64,000 bases of DNA from Gallionellaceae bacterium UBA2239 (GTDB lineage: Bacteria > Pseudomonadota > Gammaproteobacteria > Burkholderiales > UBA9220). The notes beneath the pieces are model-generated. The model had not been told where the DNA came from. It did not search any database and worked only from the letters and a program-made list of their open reading frames with translations. Of this stretch, positions 1,215 to 35,853 are shown piece after piece. Position 1 is the first letter of the stretch. Each line of letters begins with the position of its first letter. The position numbers were made by a program, and so were the translations under genes. The stretch lies in NCBI GenBank assembly GCA_002347615.1, contig DDYH01000050.1:12753-76752 (forward strand). Reading direction: 5' to 3'.

Positions 1215-1225
1215 CGCGGCTTCCA

Positions 1226-1343: not shown

Positions 1344-1348
1344 CCCAC

Positions 1349-1437: not shown

Positions 1438-1452
1438 AGCGGCACGGGGCTT

Positions 1453-1695
1453 CTAGTCGCCGCCACCATCGCCGCCCCCTCCCGAATCCCCGCCGCCGTC
1501 GCCCCAGTCCCCGCTGGCGCCGGCGCCACCGAACAGCCCGCCGCCGCCAGACCAGCCGCTATCGGTAGAGGATTCCGACGAGCTGGATTCGGAGGTTCCA
1601 TCCCCGCCTCCACGGCGCCGGCGGCGAGAAGACAAGCGGTAGGCCAAATAAATCAGCAGCAGCACGACGGCGACGAAAGCCAGAAACAGGGCCAT
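1453..1695 (-). CDS. Small single-pass membrane protein with a Gly/Ser/Asp-rich tail (hypothetical)
   Basis: The ATG at 1695 is preceded by aggaga. The N-terminus MALFLAFVAVVLLLIYLAY is hydrophobic, followed by RRRRR and then a G/S/D-rich tail. I recognise no family. Confidence 0.45.
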   Translation of the reverse strand: MALFLAFVAVVLLLIYLAYRLSSRRRRRGGGDGTSESSSSESSTDSGWSGGGGLFGGAGASGDWGDGGGDSGGGGDGGGD

Positions 1696-1932
1696 GTTTT
1701 CTCCTGAATTTCCCGGACCCGCTGGGACTCGGCCCCAATATAGTGAATGACGCAACTCTGCTCCAGCACATCATGTTCTCCCTCGGGGGGCGAAGACACG
1801 GTGGCGCCAGCCGTCATTCCCAGCAAAACAAATCAACCACCCAAACCGATTTCATATTAAACTCATTCCAAAATCCGCTGTAACGCGATAAAACAAACTA
1901 GAAATATTCCGGCAAAGGCCCCCAGGAGGAAC

Positions 1933-4900
1933 ATGAAAGTCAACCTGCCCGTCACCCAGCGCGAAGTCGATTACCCCACCTCCCAGACGCTGGTTTCCCG
2001 CACCGACCTCAAAGGCATCATCACCTACGTCAACCAGGATTTCATCGACGTCAGCGGCTTTACCGAGGAAGAGCTGATCGGTTCCTCCCACAACCTGGTG
2101 CGCCACCCGGACATGCCGCCGGAGGCCTTCGCCGACCTGTGGCAGACGCTGAAAAAGGGGCGGCCCTGGACCGGGGTGGTGAAGAACCGCTGCAAGAACG
2201 GCGACCATTACTGGGTGGTGGCCAACGTCACGCCGATCAGGGAAAACGGCCAGGTGACGGGCTTCATGTCGGTGCGGGCCAAGCCCAGCCGGGAGCAGGT
2301 GGCGGCGGCGGAACACATCTATCGCCAGCTGCGGGACAAGCAGCTCTCCCCGGCCAAGGTGTTCCGCAAGCCCGGGCTGTTCAACCGGCTCTCCCTGAAG
2401 GCCAAGCTCTCCGTCACCATCGGCATCCTCTCCCTGCTGCTCCTGGCCATCGGCTTTGCCGGCCTGAGCGGCATGCACGCCTCCAATCTGTCCCTCCAGT
2501 CGGTCTACAACGACCGCCTCGTCCCCACCGGCCAACTGGCCCGCATCAACGACCTGATGCGGGACAACATCCAGCACCTGCACCGGGCAACCGGCGACGG
2601 AGCCGCCGCCATCCAGGCCGTCCGCGGCAACATCGACACCATCAGCCAGACCTGGGACGCCTATCTCGCCACCTACCTCACCCCCGAGGAAAAGCAGCTC
2701 GCCGCCCAATTCGCCGCTTCCCGCGGCCGCTTCGTGCAGGAAGGCCTCAAACCCGCCATGGACCTGTACGCCGGAGGCAAGCCCGAGGAAGCCGAAGCCT
2801 TCCTCGGCCAGACCGTCTACCCCCTGTTCAACGCCGCCAAGAAAGACGCCGAATCCCTGCTGCAACTCCAGCTGGACGTGGCGAAGCAGGAATACGAAGC
2901 CGCCGAGGCCCACTATCAGCAACTGCGCCTGATCGCCTTCGGCGGCATCGCCGCCGGCATCCTGCTGGCGGCGATGCTGGGTTTCCTCATGCTCCGCTCC
3001 ATCCTGCGCCCCCTCCAGGCGGCCATCGGCCACTTCGAACGGATTGCCGAAGGCGATTACCGCAGCCCCATCCAGGTCGGCCAGGAAGACGAACTGGGCA
3101 AAGTGCTCTACGCCCTGAAATCCATGCAGATCAAACTGGGTTTCGACGTCAACGAATCCAAGCGGGTGGCCAACGAAGCCCTGCGCATCCAGGCGGCCCT
3201 GGACTCGGCCTCCACCAACGTGATGATCGGCGACAATAATGGCCGCATCATCTACATGAACCAGGCCATCGATGGCATGTTCCAGTCCGCGGAAGCGGAC
3301 ATCCGCCGGGACCTGCCGGATTTCCGCGCCGATGCCCTGATGGGAGCCAACTTCGACGCCTTCCACCAGAACCCGGCCCACCAGCGGGGGCTGCTGCAGT
3401 CCCTCACCGGCACCCACCGCGCCACCGTCCTGATTGGCGGCCGCACCTTCCGCCTCACCGCCAACCCGGTGGTGAACGGGGAAGGCCGCCGCCTGGGCAC
3501 CTCGGTGGAATGGCTCGACGCCACCCAGGAAGTGGCGATCGAGAACGAGGTCAAGGCCATCGTCCACGCCGCGGCGGAAGGCGACTTCAGCCGCCGCCTC
3601 GCCCTGGAGGGCAAGGAAGGCTTCATGAAAGAGCTTTCCGGCAATATCAACCGCCTGCTGGAAACCAGCGACGCCGGCCTCAACGAGGTGCTGCGGGTGC
3701 TGGAAGCCATTTCCCGGGGCGACCTGAGCCAGAAGATCACCAACGACTACCGGGGCAGCTTCGGCCAGCTCAAGGACTACAGCAACACCACGGTGGACGT
3801 GCTGACCCGCATCGTCAGCCAGCTGGAGCACGTGGTGGCCGAAGCCAACCGGGGCAACTTCAAGGTGAGCATCGACGCCGACGGCATGGCCGGCTTCCAG
3901 AAGGACATCGCCGACGGCATCAACACCCTGATGAAGACCAGCGACGTGGGTCTGGGGGAAGTGCTGCGGGTGCTGGGTGCCCTGGCCCAGGGCGACCTGA
4001 CGGAGACCATCAGCGGCGACTACCAGGGCACTTTCGGCCAGTTGAAGGACTACTCCAACACCACGGTGGAAAGCCTCAAGGACCTGGTGGGCCGGATCAA
4101 GGAAGCGGTGGACGCCATCCACACCGCCTCGGGGGAAATCGCCGCCGGCAACCAGGACCTGTCCCAGCGCACCGAAGAGCAGGCCAGCTCCCTGGAGGAA
4201 ACCGCGAGCAGCATGGAAGAGCTTACCTCCACCGTGAAGCACAACGCCGACAACGCCCAGCAGGCAAGCAAGCTGGCGGTTTCCGCCTCCGGCATCGCCT
4301 CCACCGGGGGCGAGGTGGTGCGGACTTCGGTGGTAACCATGGCGGAAATCAGCGACTCGTCCAAAAAGATCGCCGACATCATCGGCGTCATCGACGGCAT
4401 CGCCTTCCAGACCAACATCCTGGCGCTGAATGCCGCCGTGGAAGCGGCCCGGGCGGGGGAACAGGGCCGGGGCTTCGCCGTGGTGGCGGGAGAGGTGCGT
4501 AACCTGGCCCAGCGCTCCGCCAGCGCCGCCAAGGAGATAAAGGAACTCATCACCGACAGCGTGGCCAAGGTGGACAGCGGCACCGCCCAGGTCAACCAGG
4601 CCGGACACACCATGGAAGACATCGTACGCTCGGTGAAGCAGGTCACCGACATCATGGGGGAAATTTCCGCCGCCTCGTCGGAGCAGTCGGCGGGCATCGA
4701 ACAGGTGAATCAGGCCATCACCCAGATGGACGAGATCACCCAGCAGAACGCCGCCCTGGTGGAACAGGCGGCGGCGGCCGCCGAATCCATGCAGGAACAG
4801 GCGGAGCAGCTGGCCCGTGCGGTGGCCGTGTTCAAGCTGGACCGCGCCTCCGCCGTCGCCGTGCCGAAAATATCCGCGGCCAGAAAGCGGCTCCATGTGG

Positions 4901-4938
4901 TGGGCGGCAGCGACGAGGAGGAGTGGGAGGCGTTCTAG
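1933..4938 (+). CDS. Methyl-accepting chemotaxis protein (N-terminal PAS, TM/4HB-like region, second PAS, repeated HAMP-like modules, MCP signalling domain)
   Basis: Aer-like PAS ([33 protein letters not shown]). Duplicated HAMP-like segments carry [12 protein letters not shown]. The signalling hairpin is [37 protein letters not shown]. The C-terminal EWEAF resembles the xWxxF CheR/CheB tethering pentapeptide. Confidence 0.9.
4667..4936 (+). repeat. Direct repeat copy 1 (3' end of the MCP gene); left boundary of the island
   Basis: Matches 23145-23414 at a constant offset of 18478 nt. I could spot about 7 mismatches. Confidence 0.9.
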
Positions 4939-4971
4939 CCCCTATCAAATACCGTACGCCAGCACAGACGA

Positions 4972-5023
4972 CTCGCCTGCATCGGACCGTCAAGCCCGCT
5001 TTACGGCGGGCAATGCAGGCGAG
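4972..5023. repeat. REP-like hairpin (ctcgcctgcat ... atgcaggcgag)
   Basis: An 11-nt inverted repeat at 4972-4982 and 5013-5023. The same arms recur at 6628-6638 and 6710-6720. Confidence 0.7.
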
Positions 5024-5132
5024 GTACAAATGGCAACATTCCCCCGCGGCGCCTCCTCCCCCCTCACCATGGGGCCGTCCCTACGGACTGTGCATGGAGG
5101 AAATGATGGAGGATAGGGATGAGCCACCACCC

Positions 5133-6509
5133 CTACCGCTCCCTCCCCGCCTCATGAAACGCCTTCCGCACCGGCGACAGCAGATATTCCAGAATGGTGC
5201 GGTCGGCCAGCTTGATCTCCGCGCTCACCGCCATGCCGGGAGACATGCGGAAGCGCTCGTGGTCCGCCTCCAGTTCCTGGCGCTTCAAGCTCACCACCGA
5301 ACGGTAGTACAGCATGCCTGCGCCTTTGGATGGGTCGGGCGGCGCGGTGTTGCCGTTGGCTTCCCCTTGCCGGTCGCTGGCGTCGGCGCTGACGAAGCTC
5401 ACCGTCCCATCCGCCATGCCATACTTTTGGAATGGGTAGGCGGCGAGCTTGACCTTCACCTCCTGCCCCTCATGGACAAAGCCCACGTCCTCGTTGGACA
5501 GCCACACTTCCGCCTGGAGGGCTTCGTTGGCGGGCACCAGGGTGAGCAGCACGGTGCCGGGGGAGACCACGGTGCCCGGGGTGCGGGTGGCGAGGTCTTT
5601 GACGAAGCCGTCCTGGGTGGCCTTGAGTTCCATCAGTTCGTTGCGATGCTGCTGCTTGGCCCACGCCTGTCTAAGCTTCTCGTACTCGGTCATGGCATCC
5701 ACCCGCTCCTTCTGCAATTGCTGGCGGTAGGAGGAGGTGATCTGGGCAAGCTTGCGCTCCGATTGGGCGATGGTGCTCTTCAGCCCTTCTATGGTGTGGG
5801 TCTGGGAGCGCAGGTCCTGTTCCTTCTCGATGCGGTCGCGCTTTTTCTCCAGCACCATGAGATTGCCGGCGAAGCCCTTGGTGCCGAGCTTCTCGAAGGC
5901 CTGTTCCTGGGCCTGGTAGACCGGCAACACCTGCTTCAGCTTGGACTCGATCTCCCGGGCGGCGGCCAGGTCCTGGCGGGCCTTGTCGAGAACCGCCCGT
6001 TCCTGGGACAGGGCGTCCTCGTAGGCGCGGCGATTGGCCTGGTACTGGCCTTCCACTTCCCGGAACAGGTCGATGGGGTCGTCCCCGGCCCGGACCAGGG
6101 CAATGTCGTCCAGCTCGGCATCGATGCGCCGCAGTTGCAGGGATTTCTGCTTCAGTTCGGCGAACAGGGCACGGGTGTCGGCCTCCGACAGACGGGTGTC
6201 CATGCGCATCAGCACCTGCCCGGCTTTGACGAACTGGTTGTCCTTCACCAGTATCTCCCGCACCATGCCCTGCTCCGAGGGCTGGATGATCTTGAGATAA
6301 GACAGGGGCACCAACTTGCCCTCCGCCACCGCCACCACGTCCACCCGCCCTAAGGTGGCCCACAGGAGCAGGAAGCCCAGCAGCGCCAGCACCGCCTTCA
6401 GCAGCTTCCGAGGAAGCGGATGGGGCGGGCTGTGCTGAAGCTTGAGGAGGCCGGGGGCGAAGTCCAGGGCCTCCACGTCGTGGTGGGTGACGAGCTTTTC
6501 TACATCCAT
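5133..6509 (-). CDS. HlyD-family type I secretion membrane fusion protein
   Basis: The ATG at 6509 is preceded by aggagg. It has one N-terminal TM helix (LLKAVLALLGFLLLWATL), a long coiled-coil region, and a C-terminal ADRTILEYLLSPV motif typical of HlyD proteins. Confidence 0.85.
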   Translation of the reverse strand: MDVEKLVTHHDVEALDFAPGLLKLQHSPPHPLPRKLLKAVLALLGFLLLWATLGRVDVVAVAEGKLVPLSYLKIIQPSEQGMVREILVKDNQFVKAGQVLMRMDTRLSEADTRALFAELKQKSLQLRRIDAELDDIALVRAGDDPIDLFREVEGQYQANRRAYEDALSQERAVLDKARQDLAAAREIESKLKQVLPVYQAQEQAFEKLGTKGFAGNLMVLEKKRDRIEKEQDLRSQTHTIEGLKSTIAQSERKLAQITSSYRQQLQKERVDAMTEYEKLRQAWAKQQHRNELMELKATQDGFVKDLATRTPGTVVSPGTVLLTLVPANEALQAEVWLSNEDVGFVHEGQEVKVKLAAYPFQKYGMADGTVSFVSADASDRQGEANGNTAPPDPSKGAGMLYYRSVVSLKRQELEADHERFRMSPGMAVSAEIKLADRTILEYLLSPVRKAFHEAGRER

Positions 6510-6545
6510 GGAACTGCCTCCTAAAGAAACTACGAGCAGCAGTAG

Positions 6546-6733
6546 GTCGGGCACATGTGCCCGACATCCCGTCAGCAGTGTTGGGCATGTATGCCCAACC
6601 TACATTTACTGCCGTAGCGCAGGCGACCTCGCCTGCATCGGGCCGCAGGCCCGCCTTTGCGAGTTATGCGGCAAGCCGCCCATCCCTGCCAACCCCGCTT
6701 CGGCGGGCAATGCAGGCGAGTCGCCTGCGCTAC
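6546..6733. repeat. Cluster of REP-like palindromes between the HlyD gene and the RTX gene
   Basis: gtcgggcacatgtgcccgac (6546-6565) and gttgggcatgtatgcccaac (6580-6599). A nested hairpin follows, with outer arms gtagcgcaggcga/tcgcctgcgctac (6614-6626 / 6721-6733) and inner arms as at 4972-5023. Confidence 0.75.
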
Positions 6734-6775
6734 GAACGGAACGAGGATTGCCCGTTGCGCTTACGATTACGGGAA

Positions 6776-9700
6776 TCACCATCCCAAGTGGGTGAAACCT
6801 TCACGCAGGCCGGTGAAGGACTGCATGCCCCCTTTGCCGCCAGCATTGGAAGGGATGGAACCATGCCCTTTTTCGGCCCCCTTGCCACCCGAGCCCAACC
6901 CATTCGCAGCCTCGGAGAAGTGGCTATGGCCCGAAGGTGCCCCCAAATCGCCGTCGAAGGCGGCGAAGTGGGCATCCAGACGGGAATGCATCCTTCCCCA
7001 CTGGGCCTGGTAAGAACGGCCGTCTTCGTCGTCGCCCAGGCCGCGAAGCTGCTTGCCGCCTTTGGTGATGTCGTCGAAGTCGCTCAGGCGGACGGTCTGG
7101 TAACGCCCGCTTTGGTCGAACCAGCGGTGGAGCAGGCCGTCAATGCGCTCTTGCACCTTGTCCTTGTCGTTCCGCTTGCCGTAGTGGTCATGGTCCCGAT
7201 CTTCGTGGCGGTCGTGGTGATTATCATGGCCGTGGCCATGACCGGAACCGTGATGTCCCGGCCAGTTACCGGAACCGCCATCATGGCCGCAGTGGTGGCC
7301 GTTGTCTTCGCCGCCCTTACCCTTTTCAAGGGTAAGCCGGAAAACGTCCGAAGCCGATGCCTGGGAGTCATCCGTGGCGGTCACCTGAACGTCGAGAGTG
7401 CCGGAGGCGTTGGCCGGAGCAGTGCCGCTGAAGGTCTGGGTAGCGGCATCGAAAACCAGCCAACTCGGCAGGGCGGAGCCATCCGCCAGGGTGGCGCTGT
7501 AGGCCAGCGCATCGCCCTGATCGACGTCGGTAAAGCTCCCCGCTGGAACCTGCCAGGTGAAGGCCGCTTTGGTCTGGGCAGTCTGGTCAGCGAGGGGCGC
7601 AACCAAGATGGGAGCGTCGTTGACGTTGGCCACCGCGAGGTCGAAGGTGTCAGAAGCGCTGGCACCACTGCCGTCGGTGGCGGTAACGGTCAAACCCAAG
7701 GAGCCGACATCCCCGTTGGCCGGTGTGCCCGTAAGAGTACGGGTAATAGGGTCGAAGGTCAGCCAGTCGGGCAACGGCAGGCCGTCGGCCAGGGTGACGC
7801 CGAACTGGAGCGTATCGCCAAGGTCCACGTCGGCGAAGGCGCTGTCCGGCAGGGCATAGCTGAAAGGCGCGTCTTCAGTCGCCGTCTGGTCGGGAATCGG
7901 TTCCGCAACCAGGGGCGCATCGTTGACGTTGGCGACGCCGAGAGCGAACACCTGGGAGGCGGATGCCCCGGCGAGGTCGGTGGCGGTTACCTTGATATTC
8001 AAGGTGCCCACGTCGCCGTTTGCCGGCATGCCGGCAAAGGTGCGAGTGGCCCCGTCGAAACTGAGCCAAGCCGGCAGGGGATCGCCATTTTCCAGGGTGG
8101 CGGCGTAACTCAGGGCGTCGCCGACGTCCATATCCGCAAAGGCGCTTTCCGGCAAGGTGTAGGCAAAGGCGGCGTCTTCGCTAGCAGTCTGCGAGGCAAG
8201 GGGCTCCACCGCATAGGGGGCGTCGTTGACGTTGAGGACGTCGAGGGCAAACACCTGGGAGGCCGAAGCGCCGGCCGCGTCGATGGCGGTCACCATGAGT
8301 TGCAGGCTACCCACGTCTTCGTTGGCCGGAATCCCGCTCAGTGTGCGAGTGGCGGCATCGAAGGCGAGCCAGGCCGGCAGAGGTGTGCCGTCAGCCAAGG
8401 TAAGGCCGAAACTAAGGCTGTCGCCCTGGTCGATGTCGGCAAAGGCATCCGCCGGCAGGGTGAAGCTGAACAGCGCGTCTTCCGGCGCCGCCTGCTGGCC
8501 CACCGGAACGGCGGCGACCGGGGCGTCGTTGACATTGGCGACGCCGAGGGCAAACGCCGCTACCGTGCTCGCCCCTGCCAAATCGGTGGCCGTGACGGCC
8601 ACGCCGATATTTCCCACGTCGCCGTTGGCGGGGGTGCCGGCGAAGGTCAGCGTAGCCGGATCGAAGGTCAGCCAGGCCGGCAAGGGCGTACCATCGGCCA
8701 AGGCGGCGCTGTAGGAGAGCGTTTCGCCTGCATCAATGTCGGCGAAAGTTCCCGTCGGCACAGTGAAGACAAAGGACAAGTCTTCGGTGGCTGCTTGGTT
8801 GTCGATGGGGGTCACCGTGGCGGGAGCGTCGTTGACGTTGACCACCGTGAGGTCGAACAACTGCGTCGCCGCCATGCCCGCCCCATCGGTGGCAATGACC
8901 TGGACACCCCAAACGCCTACGTCGCCATTCGCCGGCGTGCCGGCGAAGGTACGGTTGACGGCATCGAAGCTGAGCCATGACGGCAGCGGATCACCGTTTT
9001 GGAGGGTGGCCGCAAAGCTAAGCGTATCGCCGGCATCGACGTCGGAAAAGGCGCCGTCGGGCAGCGCGTAGGTGAAAGGCGCATCCTCGGCAGCCGTTTG
9101 TGCGTCAATCGGAATGGCCGCAACAGGGGCATCGTTGACGTTGGCAACGGCCAGGTCGAAGGTGTCGGAAACCGCTTCCCCCGCCGGGTCGATGGCGGTC
9201 ACCGTCACGCTCAGGGTGCCCACGTCGCCGTCGCCCGGCGTGCCGCTGAAGGTGCCGGTGGAGGAGTCAAAAGCCAGCCAGCCGGGCAGCGGCGAGCCAT
9301 CAACAAGCGTGGCGGTGTAGCTCAGCACGTCGCCGGCGTCCGGGTCGATGAAGGTGCCGGCAGGAATCTGGTAGAGGAAGGCCGCATCCTCGTCCGCCGA
9401 CACATCCGGCAAGGCGCCCACCAGTTCCGGCGCACGGTTCAGGAAGTCGGTGATAGACACCTCGCTACCATCGGCAAAGCCCACCGTCGCAGTCACCAAT
9501 GAACCGGTAGCGCCCGTGGGGTCGAATCCTTCCAGGACCACGGCGTCGCCGGTGCTGCCGACTTGAAGGGTGAGCTTGCCGCTTTCCAGAACCGGCGTAA
9601 GGTCGGCCAGGGTAATCCCAGCGCCGAACTGGATGCGATTGCCGCCGGAGGCGTCAGCAATGTCGCGGATAATGTCGATGCCGTCACCCAGGTTGAAGAG

Positions 9701-16499: not shown

Positions 16500-18829
16500 G
16501 CCGCCCTCCTCCATGCCATGTCGTTACTTGCGCCACCCACCATCGGCATCGGGTTGCGGTTTTCAATCGGGCTGAAGTAGCGGTCGAAGGGGTTGCCGTA
16601 ATCGGCGGCGCTCCAGTCGAAGCCGGTGGCGGTGTAGTCGTCGTCGCCGTCGATGACGTCGTCGCCCGCTCCGCCCGCGAGGATGTCTTGCCCCTCCCCG
16701 CCGAAGAGGACGTCGTTGCTTGTTCCGCCCACGACGATGTCGTCGCCGGCGCCGCCGTTGAGCCAGTCGCCCTTCTGGCCGGTGCCGCCTTGGAGGTTGC
16801 CTTGGGTGATGGCGGTGGAGAGGTCAATTTCCGTGTCGGCGTAGAGGCGGTCGTTGCCTGCGCCGCCGTAGAGGATGTCGCTTCCTTCACCCCCTTCAAG
16901 AAGGTCGTTGCCCCCTCGGGTGGCGAGGAGCATGTCGTTGCCGCCCAGCCCTTGGACAAGGTCGTTGCCTTCGCCGTCGTAGAGCGTATCGTCACGGCCG
17001 GCTTCCTCGGTGCCGTCGGTGATGACGTTGTCCAGGTCGTCGGTGCGGTAGTCCTGGTTGGGCGGGTCGAAGTCGAGGGGGTGGAGGTCGCCGATAATGG
17101 TGCGGTCTACGGGAGCAGCATCCTCCGTGGCCAGATACAGGCCAAGGTCACCATCCTCGAAATTCTCGATGACGACGCGGGTTCCATCCGCCAAGGTCAA
17201 CGTGAGGTTGGCGTCTTTGGCAACGCTGATCGAGCGATCAGAAAGAAAAACATAATTTCCGGAAGCGTCCTTTTCGATGACACCGGAGATGACACGGCCT
17301 GTTTTGTCTTGGATGCGCCCCTGGCCGTCAGCGTCTTTTATCGTGTCGTAGCCCTCGATGATGTAGACGTCACTGCCAGCACCGCCGTCCAGAACATCGT
17401 CCCCTGCGCCGCCAACAAGCAGATCATTACCGCCGCCGCTGGATAAGGAATCGTTTCCCGATCCTCCAAGCATCAGGTCCTTCTTGTCGTCCTCCGTCGC
17501 CGTGGCAATCAAATTTCCTTCCGTAGCAAGCGAATAGCGGTCTACATTGCCATGGAAGGATATGGATAGTTCGTCATGGGCCTTGCGCAGTTCGCTATCC
17601 AGTTGCGCGAAGCTCTTTGCCACCCATTGGTCGTCTTCCGATTTGTGCTCGATCTGGACGCCGCCGCTCAGTGGCTTGAAGGCCGGGTCGAACGTGCCGG
17701 ATGCGATTCCATTCACGTGGTCCAACCCTTGCGCGTAGTGGAGATTGATGTCGAGGTCCACCAGCGCGGCTTTCAATGCGTCTGTGGCAAGCTCACCCTG
17801 AATGCGCCCGATGTCGCCTGCGAAGGCTTCCAGGGGGTTTTCGCCAGCCGTCTGCAGTTGGACCATGAGGTTGAGGAAGTTGATCTCAGCTTTACTAGGC
17901 GCTGTATTCCGCTCGGAGGTGAATATCTTTTGCAACACTTCCGGGTTGTTCTGGCTGGCGGCCAGGAATTCCGGCGATTGGAGAAACGCAGCCAGCAAGG
18001 GCATGTAGTGCAGGTCAACCGGGTCGCCGTTCAGGAGTGAATAGCCCCAGTCGTTGCCGGTGGTCGCTTTGGCATCGATTGCCTGTTCGTTGCCGGCGAT
18101 GTTGGTAACGTTGGCCGCGAGGAGGAGAATTGCGGGGTTGGAGAACAGGCCGAGCGCTACGGCGGCAATGCGCCCGGCGGGGGTTTGCGCCAGGGAGAGG
18201 ATTTCATCCTTGACGTAGATGGCGCTGACGTTTCCTTCGCGGGCGACGCGGGTGGGGCTGGGGAGGAGGGTGCCGGTCAGAGGGTCAACAGCGATATAGC
18301 CGGCAAAGGCGTCCGGCAAGGAGTAGCCTGCCGCTACAAGGGCCGCCTTGAGGCCGTTGACCACAATGGAGGAATCTGCCGATTTCTCGAAGGGCGCTTC
18401 GTCGAATACCTGTGCCGGCCGGTCAAAGTACACCGCCATCAGGGAAGCCAGGCCCCCACCCAGCGAGTGGCCGGTGAAGGTGATGGTCGCGCCGGGGTTG
18501 GCTTGGGCCACGTCCAGATAAAACTTGGCGGCATCGAGTACCTGAGGGGCAAGGGTCAGTCCGCTGCCTGCCGTGATGTTACCCGCCAGCCAATCTTTGG
18601 CTTTATCGAGCGATCCACCCTCGAAGGTGGTGCCGGTGTAGGCGATGGCAATCTCGCCGGTTTGAGTGTTTTGGTAGGCACGGGCGGTGAAGCCAGTGGC
18701 ATCGTTAATTCGATCGTCGAGTTTTACCCAGCCATCGGGGATTGGAATAGTGTTCTTATCACTGGTCACATCACGCTTTACCGCATAAGAATTGGCCGCC
18801 AGCAATGCATATTCAACATTAGTCGTCAT
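16496..18829 (-). CDS. Truncated RTX protein (777 aa) with an N-terminal alpha/beta-hydrolase lipase-like domain; orphan head cassette
   Basis: Nucleophile elbow FTGHSLGGGLASL in a class-3-lipase-like context. RTX nonapeptides are present (GGSGNDSLSSGGGNDLLVGGAGDDVLDGGAGSD). The protein then runs through the shared segment and ends ...NPMPMVGGASNDMAWRRAA-stop, at the point where the full-length paralogue continues VGGADILYGG... Confidence 0.85.
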   Translation of the reverse strand: MTTNVEYALLAANSYAVKRDVTSDKNTIPIPDGWVKLDDRINDATGFTARAYQNTQTGEIAIAYTGTTFEGGSLDKAKDWLAGNITAGSGLTLAPQVLDAAKFYLDVAQANPGATITFTGHSLGGGLASLMAVYFDRPAQVFDEAPFEKSADSSIVVNGLKAALVAAGYSLPDAFAGYIAVDPLTGTLLPSPTRVAREGNVSAIYVKDEILSLAQTPAGRIAAVALGLFSNPAILLLAANVTNIAGNEQAIDAKATTGNDWGYSLLNGDPVDLHYMPLLAAFLQSPEFLAASQNNPEVLQKIFTSERNTAPSKAEINFLNLMVQLQTAGENPLEAFAGDIGRIQGELATDALKAALVDLDINLHYAQGLDHVNGIASGTFDPAFKPLSGGVQIEHKSEDDQWVAKSFAQLDSELRKAHDELSISFHGNVDRYSLATEGNLIATATEDDKKDLMLGGSGNDSLSSGGGNDLLVGGAGDDVLDGGAGSDVYIIEGYDTIKDADGQGRIQDKTGRVISGVIEKDASGNYVFLSDRSISVAKDANLTLTLADGTRVVIENFEDGDLGLYLATEDAAPVDRTIIGDLHPLDFDPPNQDYRTDDLDNVITDGTEEAGRDDTLYDGEGNDLVQGLGGNDMLLATRGGNDLLEGGEGSDILYGGAGNDRLYADTEIDLSTAITQGNLQGGTGQKGDWLNGGAGDDIVVGGTSNDVLFGGEGQDILAGGAGDDVIDGDDDYTATGFDWSAADYGNPFDRYFSPIENRNPMPMVGGASNDMAWRRAA
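16530..17107 (-). repeat. Shared RTX segment, copy B (3' end of the lipase stub)
   Basis: See copy A. The identical out-of-frame ORF prefixes in the six-frame track (13914 and 16653) confirm the 2739-nt offset. Confidence 0.9.
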
Positions 18830-18859
18830 GATATGGGCTCCCTTGGTATGGTTAATTGG

Positions 18860-19582
18860 TCAGTGGCAGTCGTTGCGGGATGCGGGCAAAAAAACTTCCG
18901 CGGTATTTGTCGTTTGCACGTGGACGCTTCTGCATTCCTTACATGCGTCGCGGGCATATGTCGGGGGTTTGTTTCGCCCGCGGTAAGTTACCCATTCATT
19001 CAGGCCCGTTATTTCGGGTTTTTTTCGCATAAGCCAGTAGATATTCGTATCACGCGCCTCCTTTTGCGCGATAGTTACCAACCCGCGCACATCCCGCGAG
19101 CCATCATCGTCATATTCAGTGTTATTCAGCATGTTGTATCGCAGCCCCTTGGGATAGATTTCCGGGCCAATCTTTTTCCAGGTTCCATCTTCCCAGACAA
19201 AATATAGAGCGGAAGTGTCGGGATAGCCGTGCAACATGCATTGCTCACAACTACTGATTGACACCTTGACGTAAGCCTTACCATCGACGATGTCAAAAGT
19301 CTCGGGGAAATACCCAGGCTTCGATTTCCAGTGGATGCCCATGGGGGCATAGCAGAACTGCCAGTATTGGCGCGGTCCCCGATGAGAGAGCGGAAACCCG
19401 CTGGCGCCGAGTTCATCGTGTCGTTTGACGACGATGATCCGCCCGTCATGCAGCTTTACCTCTTCACTCCAGTCGAGCACCGTTGGGGCGCATTCGCCAT
19501 GGAGCGGTAGCATCATGACAATGCAAACCGTTAAAGCGCGCAACATTCGAGATACCAGTACGGTCCGTAAGTTAGTTTTCAT
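18860..19582 (-). CDS. Secreted/periplasmic Cys-rich hypothetical protein; candidate immunity protein (B)
   Basis: The N-terminus MKTNLRTVLVSRMLRALTVCIVMMLPLHG is signal-peptide-like, and there are 8 or more Cys. The ATG overlaps the stop of the stub remnant (ATGA). The gene is AT-richer than its flanks and unrelated in sequence to protein A. Confidence 0.7.
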   Translation of the reverse strand: MKTNLRTVLVSRMLRALTVCIVMMLPLHGECAPTVLDWSEEVKLHDGRIIVVKRHDELGASGFPLSHRGPRQYWQFCYAPMGIHWKSKPGYFPETFDIVDGKAYVKVSISSCEQCMLHGYPDTSALYFVWEDGTWKKIGPEIYPKGLRYNMLNNTEYDDDGSRDVRGLVTIAQKEARDTNIYWLMRKKPEITGLNEWVTYRGRNKPPTYARDACKECRSVHVQTTNTAEVFLPASRNDCH

Positions 19583-19683
19583 GCTGCCCTCCTATAATGA
19601 TCGTCATTGCTTGCACCACCCATCATCGGCATGGGATTGCGGTTTTCAATCGGGCTGAAGTAGCGGTCGAAGGGGTTGCCGTA
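19579..19683 (-). pseudogene. Remnant of a third RTX stub 3' end (junction only)
   Basis: Reads YGNPFDRYFSPIENRNPMPMMGGASNDDHYRRAA-stop. It is near-identical at nucleotide level to 16496-16600 and, in part, to 13801-13862. Homology ends at 19683. Confidence 0.8.
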
Positions 19684-19788
19684 GGGAGGTGCAGTTGGAT
19701 GCGCTGGCCCCCTTGGCCGGCTTCGTTAGGGTTGTCAGATTTCTGACCGCCGTTGACATAGGGAATTAATTTCCCTAGCATTCGGAAT

Positions 19789-20019
19789 ATGCCGCGTGTA
19801 AAGACTTTCTCAAGTTTCGCCCTCTGGTTGTATGCCAAGGAACGGCATCGCTTACCCCATGTCCATATCGAGGCGCCAGGCTTGCGCGCCACGCTGGCTA
19901 TCGAGACAGGCAAGGTGATGGTGGGTTTTGCCCCGGATGACCTGGTGCGCGAGGCACGGGCATACATTGCGGAAAATCGCGCCGCGCTGCTCGAAAAATG
20001 GAAGGAGTTGAACCCGTGA
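19789..20019 (+). CDS. DUF4160-family small protein
   Basis: 76 aa. The segment WLYAKERHRLPHVHIEAPG is the motif typical of DUF4160 (HxxPHxH). Confidence 0.65.
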   Translation: MPRVKTFSSFALWLYAKERHRLPHVHIEAPGLRATLAIETGKVMVGFAPDDLVREARAYIAENRAALLEKWKELNP

Positions 20020-20462
20020 ACAAGCCTGTTCTGATTACCGCCGTCGCCGCCGTTGAGTCTGGCGTCCTTGAGATTACCTTTGACGGCAAGAAGTCGTTTC
20101 GCGTCGATTTGCGGCGTGATATTGCCGACTACCCTGTCCTTGCTCCGCTTTCCGATCCCGCTTTGTTCGGCACTGTCCATGCGGATGAATTCGGCCATGC
20201 CGTGCGCTGGAACGATGACATTGATCTGGGCGCCGACGGGCTCTGGATGGAGGCCCATGTCCAGGCCGGGCTGGCGGTACGCTTTGAGGAGTTCGATGCC
20301 TGGCGCAAGCGAAACGGCCTGTCCCTGACGGATATTGCCAACATTCTTGGAGTCAGCCGCCGCACGGCGACAAATTATGCCGGGGGCTTTCATTTGATCC
20401 CGAAAATCGTCGGCTTGGCTATGGTCGGGTGGGAAACTCTCAAGGCCCGCAAGGCTGCCTAA
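19998..20462 (+). CDS. DUF2442-like protein with a C-terminal helix-turn-helix
   Basis: ITAVAAVESGVLEITFDGKKSFRVDL is DUF2442-like. The C-terminal LSLTDIANILGVSRRTATNYAGG is HTH-like. The real start may be the GTG at 20015, which overlaps the upstream stop (GTGA). Confidence 0.6.
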   Translation: MEGVEPVNKPVLITAVAAVESGVLEITFDGKKSFRVDLRRDIADYPVLAPLSDPALFGTVHADEFGHAVRWNDDIDLGADGLWMEAHVQAGLAVRFEEFDAWRKRNGLSLTDIANILGVSRRTATNYAGGFHLIPKIVGLAMVGWETLKARKAA

Positions 20463-20497
20463 GGCCACTGCGGTTCGGTTTTCCTTCCTGCTCGCCG

Positions 20498-22852
20498 TCA
20501 TTTTTCTTCCTCCTCCGGCGCATCGCTTTTCGTCTCCCCCTTCCCCCCCAACATCACCACCTCATCCACCTTCAGCCCCTTGGGCAGCTGATGGGTGATG
20601 AACAGCATCCCCACCTTGCCCCGCAGCTTGTTCACGGTCTGTGCGAAGTGTTCGGCGGTGTGCTGGTCCAGGTTGCTGGTGGCTTCGTCGAAGATGAGGA
20701 TTTTGGGTTGCTTGAGCAGGGCCCGGGCGATGGCGAGGCGCTGCTTCTGTCCGCCGGAGAGGCCGGAGCCGTGTTCGCCGATGGGGGTCTGGTAGCCCTG
20801 GGGGAGCTTGTCGATGACGTCATGGATTTCGGCCATGGAGCAGGCTTCGACGATCTGCGGGAAGCTGGCGTGGGGGTTGGCCATGAGGAGGTTGTCGTAG
20901 AGGGTGCCGGAGAAGAGGTAGGTTTCCTGGGGCACGACGCCGAAGTAGCTGCGCAGCTCGTTGGCGGCCAGGTGGCGGATGTCCCGGCCGTCGAGGAGGA
21001 TGCGGCCCTCGTTGGGGGTGTAGAAGCCTTGCAGCAGTTTGGCGAGGGTGCTCTTGCCGGAGCCTGAGGGGCCCATCATCACCACGCAGTGGCCGGGGAG
21101 GAGGTCGAGGCTTAAGTTGCGGTAGAGCCAGGGTAGGTCGTCGCCGTAGCGGAAGGAGATGCCTTCGATCTCCACCTTGCCGGCGGCGCCGGGGGCGCGG
21201 CTGGGCAGCAGGGTGTAGGGCTCGGTGGGGGCGGACATGACGTCCCCCAGGCGCTTGATGGAGATGGAGGCTTGCTGGAATTCCTGCCACAGGCCAACCA
21301 GGCGCATGACGGGGCCGGAGAGACGGCCGGAGAACATCTGGAAGGCCACCAGCATGCCGATGGTGAAGTCGGTATCGTGCATGACGATCCAGGCGCCGAC
21401 GCACAGGATGGCGAGGGTCTGTATCTGGTCCAGGGCGCTGGCGGCGGTGTTGTAGGTGTTGGACAGCTGCCGGGTGTTGAAGCCGGCGGCCAGGGCTTCG
21501 GCCAGGTAGTCGCCGTATTTGGCCTTGAGCTGGGGTTCCATCTGGAGGGATTTGACGGTCTCCATGCCTGCCACGTATTCGGTGACGAAGGCCTGGTTGC
21601 GGGCGCCCACCAGGAATTGCTTGTTGAGGCGCTCCCGGAACAGGGGCGTGACAATAAAGCTTAAGCTTGCGATGAGGACGAGAATGGCGAGGGAGATGAG
21701 AGTGAGCTTCCAGCTGTAGTAGAACATCACCGCCAGGAAGATGACCAGGAAGGGCAGGTCGAGGAGCAGGGAGACGGCGGTGCCGGTGATGAATTCGCGG
21801 ATGGTTTCCACGCCCTGGAGCCGGGCGACTACCGTGCCGGTGGGGCGGCGCTCGAAGTAGCGGGGCGGCAGGTGGACCAGGTGCTCGAAGACCTTGGTGC
21901 CGAGGACGGCGTCGATGCGGTTGCCGGTGTGGAGCACCAGGTATTGGCGCACCCAGGTCATGACGGCGGTGAACACCATGAAGGCCAGCAGGGCCAGGGC
22001 GATGACCACCAGGGTGCTTTGGGTGTGGTGGACGACGACCTTGTCGATGATTACCTGGGTGAACAGCGGCGTGGCAAGGCCCACCAGCTGGATGGCGAGG
22101 GAGGCGGCGAGGACTTCCTTCCACAGCTTCTTGTGCTTGAGGAGTTCGGGAACGAACCATTGGAAGCCGAAGGCGGCTTCGGGCTGGCCGTCTTCGTCGG
22201 GGAGGGGTTGGCCTTCCTTGGCGAAGAGGAGGGCCCAGGGTTCGAAGGCGGTTTCGAATTCTTCGGCGGTGGCGGTGCGGGGTTGTTCTTCGCCGGGGAG
22301 GAAGTAGAGGAGCTGGTCGCCTTCGGCTTTGAGGATGAGGGCGGGGCGGAGGGGTGGGGTAGGTGGTGCTGCGGTAGTTTCGTCGGATGGAGCATCGTCC
22401 GCATTTCCCTCTCCCCCTGCCCCTCCCCCGCTTGCGGGGGAGGGGAGCGAGAAGCTGTCCTCTTCTTCCACACTCCCCTCTCCCTCCGGGAGAGGGGCTG
22501 GGGGTGAGGAACAATCCTCCGGCTTGAGAAAGCCCAAGCACGGCAACGGAAAACGTTGCAAATCCCCAGCCGCAGCAGCGCGAATCCCCGAGCGCAGCTT
22601 CAGCCCCTGGGCGGCATGCTGGAGGCTGGCGAGGTGGTAAGGGGGCGGGAACTGCTGGAGCAGCAGGTTGGGGTCGAAGGGCTGGCGATGGAGCTGGCAC
22701 AGGCTGCCGAGACACCAGAGGAATGCATCCCGTTCCAAGAGCGCCGATAAATCAGCGTTCGGCCCCGGCTCTGGGACTTCACGATAGGACTCGATGTGGC
22801 GCAGGAGGGGCCGCGCCATATCAAATGCGTGTTTGTAGGCCGCGCGCAGCAC
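20498..22852 (-). CDS. Type I secretion ABC transporter (permease/ATPase) with an N-terminal C39-peptidase-like domain
   Basis: Walker A GPSGSGKST, signature LSGGQKQRLAIARAL, Walker B ILIFDEATS, and six TM helices. The N-terminal ~200 aa resemble the HlyB-type C39-like domain. The start is uncertain (M1 at 22852 or M12 at 22819). Confidence 0.9.
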   Translation of the reverse strand: MLRAAYKHAFDMARPLLRHIESYREVPEPGPNADLSALLERDAFLWCLGSLCQLHRQPFDPNLLLQQFPPPYHLASLQHAAQGLKLRSGIRAAAAGDLQRFPLPCLGFLKPEDCSSPPAPLPEGEGSVEEEDSFSLPSPASGGGAGGEGNADDAPSDETTAAPPTPPLRPALILKAEGDQLLYFLPGEEQPRTATAEEFETAFEPWALLFAKEGQPLPDEDGQPEAAFGFQWFVPELLKHKKLWKEVLAASLAIQLVGLATPLFTQVIIDKVVVHHTQSTLVVIALALLAFMVFTAVMTWVRQYLVLHTGNRIDAVLGTKVFEHLVHLPPRYFERRPTGTVVARLQGVETIREFITGTAVSLLLDLPFLVIFLAVMFYYSWKLTLISLAILVLIASLSFIVTPLFRERLNKQFLVGARNQAFVTEYVAGMETVKSLQMEPQLKAKYGDYLAEALAAGFNTRQLSNTYNTAASALDQIQTLAILCVGAWIVMHDTDFTIGMLVAFQMFSGRLSGPVMRLVGLWQEFQQASISIKRLGDVMSAPTEPYTLLPSRAPGAAGKVEIEGISFRYGDDLPWLYRNLSLDLLPGHCVVMMGPSGSGKSTLAKLLQGFYTPNEGRILLDGRDIRHLAANELRSYFGVVPQETYLFSGTLYDNLLMANPHASFPQIVEACSMAEIHDVIDKLPQGYQTPIGEHGSGLSGGQKQRLAIARALLKQPKILIFDEATSNLDQHTAEHFAQTVNKLRGKVGMLFITHQLPKGLKVDEVVMLGGKGETKSDAPEEEEK
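22420..22497. repeat. Two REP-like palindromes lying in frame inside the ABC transporter gene
   Basis: cccctcccccg-cttg-cgggggagggg (22420-22445) and cccctctccc-tcc-gggagagggg (22475-22497). They encode ...PLPEGEGSVEEEDSFSLPSPASGGGAGGEG... Confidence 0.8.
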
Positions 22853-23144
22853 GGCCAGGAGGCGCCCTCCTCCGTCTAGGACTTTTTTACCACGCCCATC
22901 TCCAAAAGCTTGTGATTATGGGAAACGGTCCGGTGGCCGCTTCTTCCATTTGTTTTCTTATGCTCTGCCCTGCCGGCAGCTTCTATGGCGCCGTGTCATG
23001 ACATCGTTATATCAATGCCTCGTCATATTTGGCACGAATATACCACTACGACGTCATGGATAAAGTCCGTACTTTTACGTACGGAGGGGTCAAGGGAGAA
23101 GCGGAGATGGGGGGATGACCGGAGGATTTTCAATCCAACCCAAG

Positions 23145-23416
23145 CCGCCGCCTCGTCGGAGCAGTCGGCGGGCATCGAGCAGGTGAACCAGGCCATCACC
23201 CAGATGGACGAGATCACCCAGCAGAACGCCGCCCTGGTGGAACAGGCGGCGGCGGCCGCCGAATCCATGCAGGGACAGGCAGAGCAGCTGGCCCGTGCGG
23301 TGGCCGTGTTCAAGCTGGACCGCGCCTCCGCCGTCACCGTGCCGAAAATATCCGCGGCCAGAAAGCGGCTCCATGTGGTGGGCGGCAGCGACGAGGAGGA
23401 GTGGGAGGCGTTCTGA
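23145..23416 (+). pseudogene. Orphan 3' fragment of the MCP gene (direct repeat copy 2); right boundary of the island
   Basis: Encodes [34 protein letters not shown]...[11 protein letters not shown]-stop, i.e. the last ~90 codons of the gene at 1933-4938. The upstream in-frame sequence is unrelated. Confidence 0.9.
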
Positions 23417-23577
23417 TTGCCGGGAAGGCGCGCCTACCTCCAAGTTAGGGATTGCCTTACGTAATTAGCGGTTTCCCCTACGTAGCTTTCCTTAGCGCCA
23501 ACCGGCATTTTCCTAATTGTACCGCGGCGGGAACATCGCTAGATTAAGCTCATCGAGACAACAGCCGGTGGTGAACC

Positions 23578-23853
23578 ATGCTCCACGTAACGAAACACGG
23601 CCACAAATGCTGCGGCACCTGCGAACACTGGAACGGCGTTCGGGTGCATGAAGACGACGGCCACATCTACTCCCTGGGAAACGTGGAAGCCGTGTGCCGC
23701 AAGCTGGTGGGCGCCGGCGGAAACTCCGTTCCGCTCACCCTGCCGTCGGGGCCCGCCTGCCCGGAATGGGAAAGCTGGGATGAGACCCTCACCCCGTCGG
23801 GCCTACCGGAACGCCGCAGCGGCTGGGTAAGCCGGGCTTTCTGGCCGGACTGA
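23578..23853 (+). CDS. Small Cys-containing hypothetical protein
   Basis: 91-aa ORF containing HKCCGTCEHW and PACPEW. I recognise no family. Coding status rests only on ORF length and GC3-type codon usage. Confidence 0.35.
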   Translation: MLHVTKHGHKCCGTCEHWNGVRVHEDDGHIYSLGNVEAVCRKLVGAGGNSVPLTLPSGPACPEWESWDETLTPSGLPERRSGWVSRAFWPD

Positions 23854-23861
23854 TCCCGCCG

Positions 23862-35800: not shown

Positions 35801-35853
35801 GATTTGTGTCCTCCTGTTGCAGTCAATAAACATCGCGCAGCGATTCTTCGTCC

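What the first reader, a model, noticed from the sequence alone, without database searches (positions are those of the whole stretch)
4667..23416. 18.2-kb island bounded by a ~270-nt direct duplication of a chemoreceptor gene 3' end, with no integrase visible
Positions 4667-4936 (the last ~90 codons of the MCP) recur at 23145-23414 with a constant offset of 18478. The differences I could see were gaacaggtgaat/gagcaggtgaac, caggaacaggcg/cagggacaggca and gtcgcc/gtcacc, plus the stop codon TAG versus TGA just past that range (4936-4938 / 23414-23416).

Homology starts abruptly at 23145 and ends at the stop codon in both copies; the sequences after each copy are unrelated. This is the footprint of an element that inserted into the 3' end of a gene while carrying a near-identical replacement end.

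I see no integrase, tRNA or transposase inside the island. It may therefore be old, mobilised in trans, or lost and gained by homologous recombination between the repeats. Both copies keep the C-terminal EWEAF pentapeptide.
Basis: seen in the sequence. Interest (0 to 1): 0.7.

Follow-up and report, generated by a model that had tools for sequence, protein, structure and literature searches.

The report
Secretion-gene island flanked by target duplication
An 18-kb block of protein-secretion genes was inserted exactly at the stop codon of a chemoreceptor gene in one bacterial strain, copying 270 bases of the host gene in the process; the insertion is real and strain-specific, but it looks like a one-off recombination accident rather than a new kind of mobile element.

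Summary
Bases 4667-4936 recur at 23145-23414 (265/270 identical), and 18,208 bases lie between the copies.

Two relatives have the predicted empty site. In each, the chemoreceptor (MCP) stop codon is followed directly by the sequence that starts at window 23417. One relative's MCP is 96% identical in protein to the window's, the other's 68%. The block is therefore a lineage-specific insertion.

Its cargo is a complete type I secretion operon:
- an HlyB-type ABC exporter and a HlyD adaptor;
- a 2999-aa RTX/Ig-repeat protein and an RTX lipase;
- several small ORFs.

It has no integrase, transposase or tRNA.

The "replacement end carried by an element" reading is not supported. The two copies are each other's closest relatives. 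They share 11 substitutions and a 3-nt indel against the empty-site allele, in a strain-variable tail. The functional copy has only synonymous private changes. The repeat is therefore a duplication of the host's own target.

Relatives of the operon sit at three other chromosomal loci without MCP fragments. The same organism seems to keep a diverged native copy next to pilR.

Best reading: a horizontally acquired second copy of the operon, inserted once by illegitimate, probably replicative, recombination. The repeats now allow RecA-dependent loss. Interest is modest.

The parts
1933..4938 (+). Intact methyl-accepting chemotaxis protein gene (1001 aa; PAS, TarH/4HB, HAMP, MCPsignal; C-terminal EWEAF)
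   Evidence: Pfam; orthologues at 96% and 68% protein identity in syntenic contexts
4667..4936 (+). Repeat copy A: the last 270 nt of the functional MCP gene, up to the T of the stop codon
   Evidence: Its two private changes (4701, 4710) are synonymous
4937..5132 (.). Left terminal spacer of the insert. It supplies the AG of the new TAG stop codon and contains a REP-like hairpin (4972-5023). It has no homologue downstream of hlyD in relatives.
   Evidence: The hairpin family also occurs at 6616-6720 and in the core genome (L001 7139-7202; L084 4374-4426)
5133..6509 (-). HlyD-family type I secretion adaptor (458 aa)
   Evidence: TIGR01843, 323 bits, above the cut-off; Pfam HlyD_3. 92% nt identity to the copy next to glycogen phosphorylase in the relative
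6776..15775 (-). 2999-aa RTX protein: lysozyme-like N-terminus, RTX repeats, seven He_PIG Ig-like repeats. It looks like a fusion of a ~660-aa RTX effector with a giant adhesin-like protein.
   Evidence: Pfam. 13791-14090 is 94% identical to the C-terminal region of the lipase gene. The separate 672-aa homologue in L169 aligns only as far as 13791
15789..16514 (-). 241-aa ORF with a signal-peptide-like N-terminus. It overlaps the lipase stop by 19 nt and matches no family.
16496..18829 (-). 777-aa RTX lipase/phospholipase
   Evidence: Pfam Lipase_3 and HemolysinCabind; precomputed Phospholipase-like hit
18860..19582 (-). 240-aa ORF with a signal-peptide-like N-terminus, unrelated to the 241-aa ORF
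19603..19683 (-). Remnant of a third RTX C-terminal (secretion-signal) segment
   Evidence: 93% identical to 16520-16600; matches RTX gene ends in L169
19882..20462 (+). Truncated DUF4160 ORF (45 aa) plus a DUF2442-HTH ORF (148 aa), in a low-GC patch
   Evidence: JGI gene calls; Pfam; GC profile
20498..22852 (-). HlyB-type type I secretion ABC exporter (784 aa). A REP-like palindrome lies in its linker coding region (22407-22447).
   Evidence: Pfam and NCBIfam TIGR01846; 94% protein identity to the pilR-adjacent copy of the relative; repeat family D11
22853..23083 (-). Upstream (promoter) region of the secretion operon. It is homologous to the pilR-ABC spacer of relatives as far as the palindrome GTACGTAAAAGTAC.
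23084..23144 (.). Right terminal 61 nt of the insert. Origin unresolved; at best weakly similar to the pilR-ABC spacer.
23145..23416 (+). Repeat copy B: orphan MCP 3' end with the ancestral TGA stop, contiguous with the ancestral downstream flank. Probably a pseudogene fragment.
   Evidence: Its three private changes include two non-synonymous ones. No Pfam MCPsignal hit
23417..25931 (.). Ancestral right flank: a 91-aa ORF (23578-23853, +) and a second MCP (23862-25931, -). Both lie directly after the MCP stop in the empty sites.

Best explanation
The organism is an uncultured betaproteobacterium, probably of the Sulfuricellaceae. It carries dsrC and narGHJI. It acquired a second, horizontally derived copy of a type I secretion operon that is typical of its lineage.

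The insert comprises the operon's promoter, the ABC exporter, RTX cargo genes, the HlyD adaptor and a terminal hairpin. It runs from 4937 to 23144 (18,208 nt).

It entered the chromosome once, with no recombinase of its own, by illegitimate recombination.
- The left joint lies after the first base of the MCP stop codon. The insert supplies AG, which makes a new TAG stop.
- The right joint lies 270 nt further back in the same gene.
- The host's own last 270 nt were therefore duplicated, like a very long target-site duplication.

The most likely route is a replicative template switch, or a pair of illegitimate joints made on two sister chromosomes. Synthesis leaves the MCP end, copies foreign DNA, and re-enters 270 nt behind the point of departure.

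After insertion, copy A stayed under selection as part of the working chemoreceptor. Copy B decays as an orphan fragment. The repeats now make the island deletable by RecA-dependent recombination, which would restore an intact MCP.

Functionally the island exports RTX proteins: a giant Ig-repeat adhesin-like protein and a lipase.

Shown:
- the insertion and the empty site;
- the host origin of the duplicated segment;
- the absence of mobility genes;
- the cargo families;
- paralogous loci elsewhere.

Inferred:
- the recombination route;
- the foreign donor;
- the expression and function of the cargo.
For: (1) Empty sites. L084 (MCP 96% identical in protein; core about 95% nt identity) and L085/L086 (MCP 68%) read MCP, a small ORF, a second MCP, a methyltransferase, dsrC, then nar. 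At nucleotide level L084 reads ...TTCTGA followed by the homologue of 23417 onwards.

(2) The copies are sisters.
- A versus B: 5 differences. A versus L084: 13 plus an indel. B versus L084: 14 plus an indel.
- 11 substitutions and the 3-nt indel are shared by A and B.
- The tail differs between strains.
- A's private changes are both synonymous; two of B's three change an amino acid.

(3) There is no integrase, transposase or tRNA in the island and no terminal inverted repeats. The longest inverted match between the ends is 10 nt, against a null maximum of 12.

(4) The same operon type lies at other loci without any MCP fragment:
- between pilSR and glycogen phosphorylase in the relative that has the empty site (L087, L177);
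- between dsbD and a HAD hydrolase gene (L169/L171);
- near the PEP synthase gene (L088).

(5) The window's own sample has a pilR contig that continues into an ABC-like copy. That copy is only 84-89% identical to the island's. All four assemblies of this locus break just after pilR. The island is therefore not a recent internal duplicate, because the flanking repeats differ by only 1.9%.

(6) The island's ABC and HlyD genes are 90-92% identical in nucleotides to the relative's copies, against about 95% for core genes. The island interior has atypical tetranucleotide use (r = 0.72-0.84 against 0.94 +/- 0.02).

(7) The insert is a complete transcription unit. Homology to the pilR-ABC spacer runs to within 61 nt of the right joint.
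Against: - The donor sequence across both breakpoints is unknown, so microhomology at the joints could not be scored. The recombination route is inferred by exclusion.
- Gene conversion between the copies could mimic a recent common origin.
- With only 5 differences, the pattern of synonymous versus non-synonymous changes is suggestive, not significant.
- Assigning the pilR contig (L173) to the same genome as the window rests on co-occurrence in two datasets and on matching divergence from the relative. It does not rest on physical linkage.
- A 270-nt target duplication is unusually long for any documented bacterial insertion route that I know of.
Confidence: 0.55

Rival explanations
1. Homology-driven insertion. 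Either a circular intermediate that already carried a 270-nt MCP fragment integrated by a single RecA crossover (Campbell type). Or there were two steps: a simple insertion at the MCP stop codon in a sibling strain, then transfer by homology-facilitated illegitimate recombination. In the second step the MCP served as anchor and the far end joined 270 nt back in the recipient.
For: - Both routes give exactly this architecture.
- The copies are conspecific in sequence.
- 270 nt with perfect runs of up to 85 nt is ample for RecA.
- The REP-like hairpin family of the island's left end also occurs in this lineage's core genome, so the donor was a close relative.
Against: - It needs an earlier event that placed the operon next to an MCP end, or that captured an MCP fragment on a circle. 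That is one more step than direct duplicative insertion.
- No sibling with a simple insertion was found, and no plasmid matches the island.
- Relatives of the operon at other loci carry no MCP fragment.
Confidence: 0.2
2. An integrative element mobilised in trans (CIME- or MGI-like). The repeats would be attL and attR for a tyrosine or serine recombinase encoded elsewhere, and the element would bring its own copy of the gene end, as phage 21 and e14 do at icd.
For: - Direct repeats of a gene's 3' end flank the block.
- The gene stays intact, down to a regenerated stop codon.
- The cargo is compositionally atypical.
- An IS3 transposase gene lies elsewhere in the window (37749-38687). It shows that mobile DNA is present, although an IS3 element would not act on such sites.
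Against: - No recombinase lies in or beside the island.
- The supposed element-borne copy carries this host's strain-specific tail.
- Related islands sit at three other loci without such repeats.
- Both relatives examined have plain empty sites with no element at that attB.
- 270 nt is far longer than usual att identity blocks (my own knowledge).
Confidence: 0.1
3. The island is ancestral at this site. It was lost twice, in both relatives, by recombination between the repeats, and gene conversion keeps the copies alike.
For: Deletion between direct repeats leaves a clean empty site that cannot be told from a site that was never occupied. 270 nt is enough for both deletion and conversion.
Against: - It needs two independent losses plus continuing conversion of an orphan fragment.
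- Both relatives keep the MCP-small ORF-MCP2 order.
- The relative has the operon at the pilR locus instead, and the window organism appears to have that copy as well.
- The island interior is compositionally foreign.
Confidence: 0.07
4. Assembly artefact: a metagenomic chimera joined at a shared MCP 3' sequence.
For: The window is a metagenome contig, and related strains exist in public data.
Against: - The right joint (23144/23145) has no shared sequence to its left, so a collapsed repeat cannot create it.
- Copy B has three private SNPs and is linked to the right flank.
- Flank genes and island genes all list the same 83,167-bp NCBI/ENA record as their longest contig, and a third contig of 20-50 kb has the same neighbours.
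- The Logan contig break fits two real copies.
Confidence: 0.03

Closest known systems
Phage 21 and e14 integration into the 3' end of icd in E. coli (an element-borne replacement gene end; from my own knowledge, not tested here)
   Same: A direct repeat of a gene's 3' end flanks the inserted DNA. The target gene keeps a complete reading frame.
   Different: Those elements encode an integrase next to att and bring a diverged, foreign copy of the gene end. Here there is no recombinase, and both copies carry the host's own strain-specific sequence.
Integrase-less islands mobilised in trans (CIMEs of Streptococcus; MGIs of Vibrio; my own knowledge)
   Same: A block flanked by direct repeats, without its own integrase.
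   Different: Their repeats are short att sites shared with a helper element that uses the same attB. No helper was seen here, and the relatives examined have plain empty sites. The repeat is a 270-nt host duplication.
Illegitimate integration of foreign DNA: double illegitimate recombination and homology-facilitated illegitimate recombination in natural transformation (Hulter and Wackernagel 2008, as cited in PMC12359135); microhomology-mediated break-induced replication (PMC2621351)
   Same: Foreign DNA is inserted without mobility genes. The end points are non-recurrent. A switch back behind the point of departure gives a flanking duplication.
   Different: Microhomology at the joints could not be checked because the donor is unknown. 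I know of no natural bacterial case described with an 18-kb insert and a 270-nt duplication.
HlyB/HlyD-type type I secretion operons with RTX substrates (E. coli hlyCABD; RTX adhesin and lipase loci)
   Same: An ABC exporter with an N-terminal extension, a HlyD adaptor (TIGR01843), and substrates with RTX nonapeptide repeats and shared C-terminal segments.
   Different: The exporter and adaptor genes sit at opposite ends of the operon with the cargo between them. There is no outer-membrane component in the block. The ABC protein scores below the TIGR01846 cut-off.
Target-site duplications of transposons
   Same: The flanking repeat is a copy of the target itself.
   Different: Transposon duplications are 2-15 bp and come with a transposase and terminal inverted repeats. 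None of these is present.

Membership tests
Integrase-type integrative island or prophage at a gene 3' end | Site-specific recombinase gene inside the element, next to an att site | tested here: not met
   Pfam and NCBIfam scans of the ORFs I picked, plus the JGI gene calls with their precomputed Pfam hits, show none
Integrase-type integrative island or prophage at a gene 3' end | Direct repeats (attL/attR) at both ends | tested here: met
   270-nt repeat, 98% identical
Integrase-type integrative island or prophage at a gene 3' end | The element-borne copy of the gene end has its own history, distinct from the host allele | tested here: not met
   The copies are sisters. They share 11 substitutions and an indel against the empty-site allele
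Integrase-type integrative island or prophage at a gene 3' end | Recurrent use of the same attachment site by related elements | tested here: not met
   Related operons lie at the pilR, dsbD and PEP-synthase loci without MCP fragments
Integrase-type integrative island or prophage at a gene 3' end | Excision to a circular form at a defined core | not testable with these tools
   Needs reads or PCR
Element mobilised in trans (CIME/MGI-like) | A helper element with a recombinase that uses the same attB in related genomes | tested here: inconclusive
   Only the relatives found here (two lineages, three contigs) could be read, and all have plain empty sites. The rest of the genome was not available.
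Transposon or composite transposon | A transposase, terminal inverted repeats and a short target duplication | tested here: not met
   No transposase in the island. The ends share no inverted repeat beyond chance. The duplication is 270 nt. The only transposase in the window lies 14 kb away.
Type I secretion system operon (HlyB/HlyD/RTX) | ABC exporter with a transmembrane domain and a nucleotide-binding domain | tested here: met
   ABC_membrane and ABC_tran; best NCBIfam hit TIGR01846 at 598 bits, below its 726-bit cut-off
Type I secretion system operon (HlyB/HlyD/RTX) | HlyD-family periplasmic adaptor | tested here: met
   TIGR01843 at 323 bits, above the 209-bit cut-off
Type I secretion system operon (HlyB/HlyD/RTX) | Substrates with RTX repeats and a C-terminal signal | tested here: met
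   HemolysinCabind in the 2999-aa and 777-aa proteins. Conserved C-terminal segments are repeated at 13791-14090, 16530-16829 and 19603-19683. Secretion itself was not tested.
Type I secretion system operon (HlyB/HlyD/RTX) | TolC-like outer-membrane channel | not tested
   None in the island. The rest of the genome was not examined.
Illegitimate or replicative duplicative insertion | An unoccupied site in relatives, with the duplicated segment derived from the target | tested here: met
Illegitimate or replicative duplicative insertion | Microhomology between donor and target at both joints | not testable with these tools
   No donor sequence across the breakpoints was found. The terminal 194 nt and 61 nt have no homologue in any locus fetched.

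The most novel reading that the evidence does not exclude
The 270-nt repeats are not a scar but a working address. The island would pop out as a circle by RecA recombination. After transfer to an island-free sibling it would re-enter by a single crossover in the chemoreceptor tail. That would make it an integrase-free genomic island targeted by homology. Alternatively, an undescribed insertion mechanism makes target duplications hundreds of bases long.
Probability: 0.08. Interest if true: 0.6.

Novelty: new member of a known kind. Interest (0 to 1): 0.3.

Why it matters
It is a clean natural example of how a complete 18-kb functional operon can enter a bacterial chromosome with no mobility genes. 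Both joints are resolved to the base and an empty site is available for comparison.

It also shows that a repeated gene 3' end flanking an island is not in itself evidence for site-specific integration. Comparing both copies with an unoccupied allele separates an imported att site from a target duplication.

For the organism, the island adds a second RTX adhesin and lipase secretion system. Its flanking repeats predict frequent reversible loss.

None of this opens a long-standing question.

Tried and rejected
- GTDB species-representative scan with the MCP. No close relative was found (best 46-70%, partial), and none of the 80 loci was syntenic.
- JGI metagenome scan with the ABC protein.
- Look-up of P0249, a 55-aa 'member' of the MCP cluster on a 2.5-Mb contig. 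It is a spurious cluster member and irrelevant.
- Exact look-up of the second MCP with a GTG start. It is not on record, because the called gene starts elsewhere.
- Search for decayed MCP homology upstream of 23145, and for homology between the two downstream flanks. None.
- Plasmid collection search with the whole island. No match.
- PDB sequence searches with the N-terminal domains of the two RTX proteins. No match.
- Three-way comparison of the island, same-sample and relative copies of the ABC upstream region, to place the donor. The result is star-like and unresolved.
- Consensus promoter and terminator scans at both joints. Uninformative.
- Literature searches for a precedent for long target duplications. 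They gave only general papers on mechanism.
- Considered and rejected: a recent intragenomic duplication of the pilR-locus operon. The divergence is 11-16%, against 1.9% between the flanking repeats.
Full report
**Observation.** Bases 4667-4936 and 23145-23414 align without gaps, with 265 of 270 identical. They are the only two copies in the window. Homology begins abruptly at 23145. No significant similarity was found between 22300-23144 and the rest of the MCP gene. Homology ends after the T of the stop codon, and the downstream sequences are unrelated. Both copies encode the C-terminal EWEAF.

**Is the structure real?** The window is JGI contig Iso3TCLC_10000420 of sample 3300002821.
- The left-flank, island and right-flank proteins each list the same 83,167-bp record as their longest contig, in NCBI and/or ENA, so the flanks and island probably lie on one contig there too. 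A third contig of 20-50 kb has the same neighbours.
- A Logan contig from run SRR5324054 starts exactly 31 nt before the first base that is specific to copy B. A k = 31 graph branches there if both copies exist.
- The right joint has no shared sequence to its left, so a collapsed repeat cannot produce it.

**Content of the block (4937-23144).** All the main genes are on the minus strand:
- a HlyB-type ABC exporter (20498-22852);
- a remnant of an RTX C-terminus (19603-19683);
- a 240-aa ORF (18860-19582);
- a 777-aa RTX lipase (16496-18829);
- a 241-aa ORF that overlaps the lipase stop codon (15789-16514);
- a 2999-aa RTX protein with a lysozyme-like N-terminus and seven He_PIG repeats (6776-15775);
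- a HlyD adaptor (5133-6509; TIGR01843, above its cut-off).

A truncated DUF4160 ORF and a DUF2442-HTH ORF lie on the plus strand in a low-GC patch (19882-20462). There is no integrase or transposase in the block, and no tRNA or Rfam family in the window. The ends share no inverted repeat beyond chance. The block is a complete type I secretion operon with RTX cargo.

**Empty sites.** A homologue search with the MCP gave a 96%-identical protein (P0001) and a 68%-identical one (P0002).
- On a 141-kb contig of sample 3300005144 (L084), the gene order is DEAD helicase, DUF188..., MCP, the 91-aa ORF, the second MCP, a methyltransferase, dsrC, then narIJHG.
- The more distant L085/L086 have the same order downstream of the MCP.
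- At nucleotide level, L084 reads ...GAGTTCTGA followed by the homologue of window 23417 onwards.

The block is therefore an insertion in the window's lineage, or far less parsimoniously two losses.

**Whose sequence is the repeat?** With L084 as outgroup, copy A differs from copy B at 5 sites. A differs from L084 at 13 sites plus a 3-nt indel, and B at 14 plus the same indel. Eleven substitutions and the indel are shared by A and B. These shared states lie mostly in the C-terminal tail, which differs between strains (P0247; L085).
- A is derived at 4710, and at 4701 relative to L084. Both changes are synonymous.
- B is derived at 4796, 4803 and 4858. Two of these changes are non-synonymous.
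- B keeps the ancestral TGA and is contiguous with the ancestral flank. A ends in T plus AG supplied by the insert.

The two copies therefore descend from one sequence of this very lineage, after its split from a relative with about 95% nucleotide identity. The repeat is a duplication of the target, not a foreign replacement end.

**Where the cargo comes from.** The closest ABC homologue (P0121, 94-95% protein identity) lies in the same sample as the empty site, directly after pilS-pilR (L087). Nucleotide homology to the window runs from the ABC stop codon to 23082, which is within 61 nt of the right joint. The matching HlyD of that organism lies next to a convergent glycogen phosphorylase gene (L177). 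It is 92% identical in nucleotides, and homology stops at the hlyD stop codon.

Other relatives of the operon lie between dsbD and a HAD hydrolase gene (L169/L171). Another lies near the PEP synthase gene, next to a Y1 transposase (L088). None of these has an MCP fragment.

In the window's own sample, the pilR contig (L173) continues into an ABC-like sequence that is 84-89% identical to the island's. All four assemblies of this locus end just after pilR. L173 and L087 are 95.8% identical over 9.9 kb, and the window and L084 are 94.5% identical over 14.6 kb. This fits two organisms, each with a native pilR-linked operon, and one of them with the extra island.

The island is too diverged from that native copy to be a recent internal duplicate, given that the flanking repeats differ by only 1.9%. 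Its transport genes are more diverged from the relative's (90-92%) than core genes are (about 95%). Its interior has atypical tetranucleotide use. Its left terminal spacer carries a REP-like hairpin of a family that also occurs in this lineage's core genome. The donor was therefore probably a related bacterium.

**Mechanism.** A site-specific element is disfavoured for four reasons:
- there is no recombinase;
- the repeat is derived from the host;
- the target is not used recurrently;
- the relatives have plain empty sites.

A transposon is excluded. What remains is illegitimate insertion in which the two joints fall 270 nt apart in reversed order. That requires two copies of the target, as at a replication fork or on sister chromosomes. 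Two routes fit: a replicative template switch of the kind proposed for microhomology-mediated break-induced replication (PMC2621351), or double illegitimate recombination of incoming DNA (Hulter and Wackernagel 2008, as cited in PMC12359135).

The left joint spares the whole reading frame and regenerates a stop codon. The insert is a complete transcription unit. Both features are more likely to be filters of selection than properties of the mechanism.

I could not test for microhomology because no donor sequence spans the breakpoints. A homology-driven two-step route remains possible. Either way, 270 nt with perfect runs of up to 85 nt should permit RecA-dependent deletion, which would leave an intact, possibly chimeric, MCP.

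**Verdict.** The feature is a strain-specific insertion of a secretion operon, flanked by an unusually long target duplication. It is a new member of known kinds: a genomic island or indel made by illegitimate recombination, carrying an RTX type I secretion operon. Interest is modest at 0.3. The only reading that would raise it is an integrase-free island addressed by homology, or a mechanism that makes long target duplications. I put that at about 8%.

Noticed in passing
window 1215-1932 versus L084 6563-10000: Between DUF188 and the MCP, the 96% relative has a PAS-GGDEF gene, an M15 peptidase gene and a TerC gene (3.4 kb). The window has only 0.7 kb there, with an 86-nt remnant (1346-1431, 94% identical). 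The 68% relative also has the M15 peptidase, so this is a deletion in the window lineage. The MCP is flanked by rearrangements on both sides.
   Followed up: partly
window 22407-22447; also 44144-44184 and 45201-45241; L173 tail; L088 about 9970-10010: A REP-like G/C-rich palindrome (CCCCTCCCCCGC..GCGGGGGAGGGG) lies inside the coding region of the ABC exporter, in the linker between the N-terminal domain and the membrane domain. It encodes a low-complexity stretch. The same family occurs in intergenic DNA elsewhere in the window and at the same place in the pilR-linked ABC copy.
   Followed up: partly
window 13791-14090 and 16530-16829; ORF 6776-15775: The first ~660 aa of the 2999-aa ORF correspond to a separate 672-aa lysozyme-like RTX protein in L169. 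They end in a segment that is 94% identical to the C-terminus of the lipase. The giant ORF looks like an in-frame fusion that removed a stop codon and the following ~284-aa gene. It could also be an assembly collapse in RTX repeats.
   Followed up: partly
window 15789-19582 (and L169 13570-20288): The RTX lipase has an unrelated ~240-aa ORF with a signal-peptide-like N-terminus on each side; the downstream one (241 aa) overlaps the lipase stop. In L169 the lysozyme-like RTX protein is likewise followed by such an ORF (284 aa), which overlaps its end. This resembles the effector-immunity pairs of antibacterial secretion systems. No family or structure match was obtained.
   Followed up: partly
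window 19882-20462 (+) and 19603-19683: A truncated DUF4160 ORF and a DUF2442-HTH ORF sit in a low-GC patch on the opposite strand, next to a remnant of an RTX C-terminus. This is probably a small toxin-antitoxin-like hitch-hiker that displaced an RTX gene.
   Followed up: no
window 37749-38687 (+): An IS3-family transposase gene (rve, HTH_21) lies between the nitrate-transporter genes and the hydrogenase genes, 14 kb to the right of the island. It is the only mobility gene seen in the window.
   Followed up: no
L173 11372-12076; L174, L175 and L176 ends: Four independent assemblies all break within 200-700 nt after pilR, where a second ABC-like copy begins. The window organism probably carries two paralogous RTX secretion loci.
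   Followed up: partly
window 23417-23445 versus L084 13010-13060: The G/C-rich palindrome just after the MCP stop in the relative (GGGGCGCCCC...) is missing from the window, as a 21-nt gap directly downstream of the orphan copy.
   Followed up: no
window 44234-44355 and 47279-47400; also 35833-35897: A 122-nt direct repeat (85% identical) brackets the valyl-tRNA synthetase gene (44366-47290). Part of it recurs inverted at 35833-35897. It is probably another dispersed repeat family.
   Followed up: no
L088 12004-12567: In a more distant relative, the ABC exporter is C-terminally truncated and is followed by a Y1 (IS200/RAYT-type) transposase gene.
   Followed up: no
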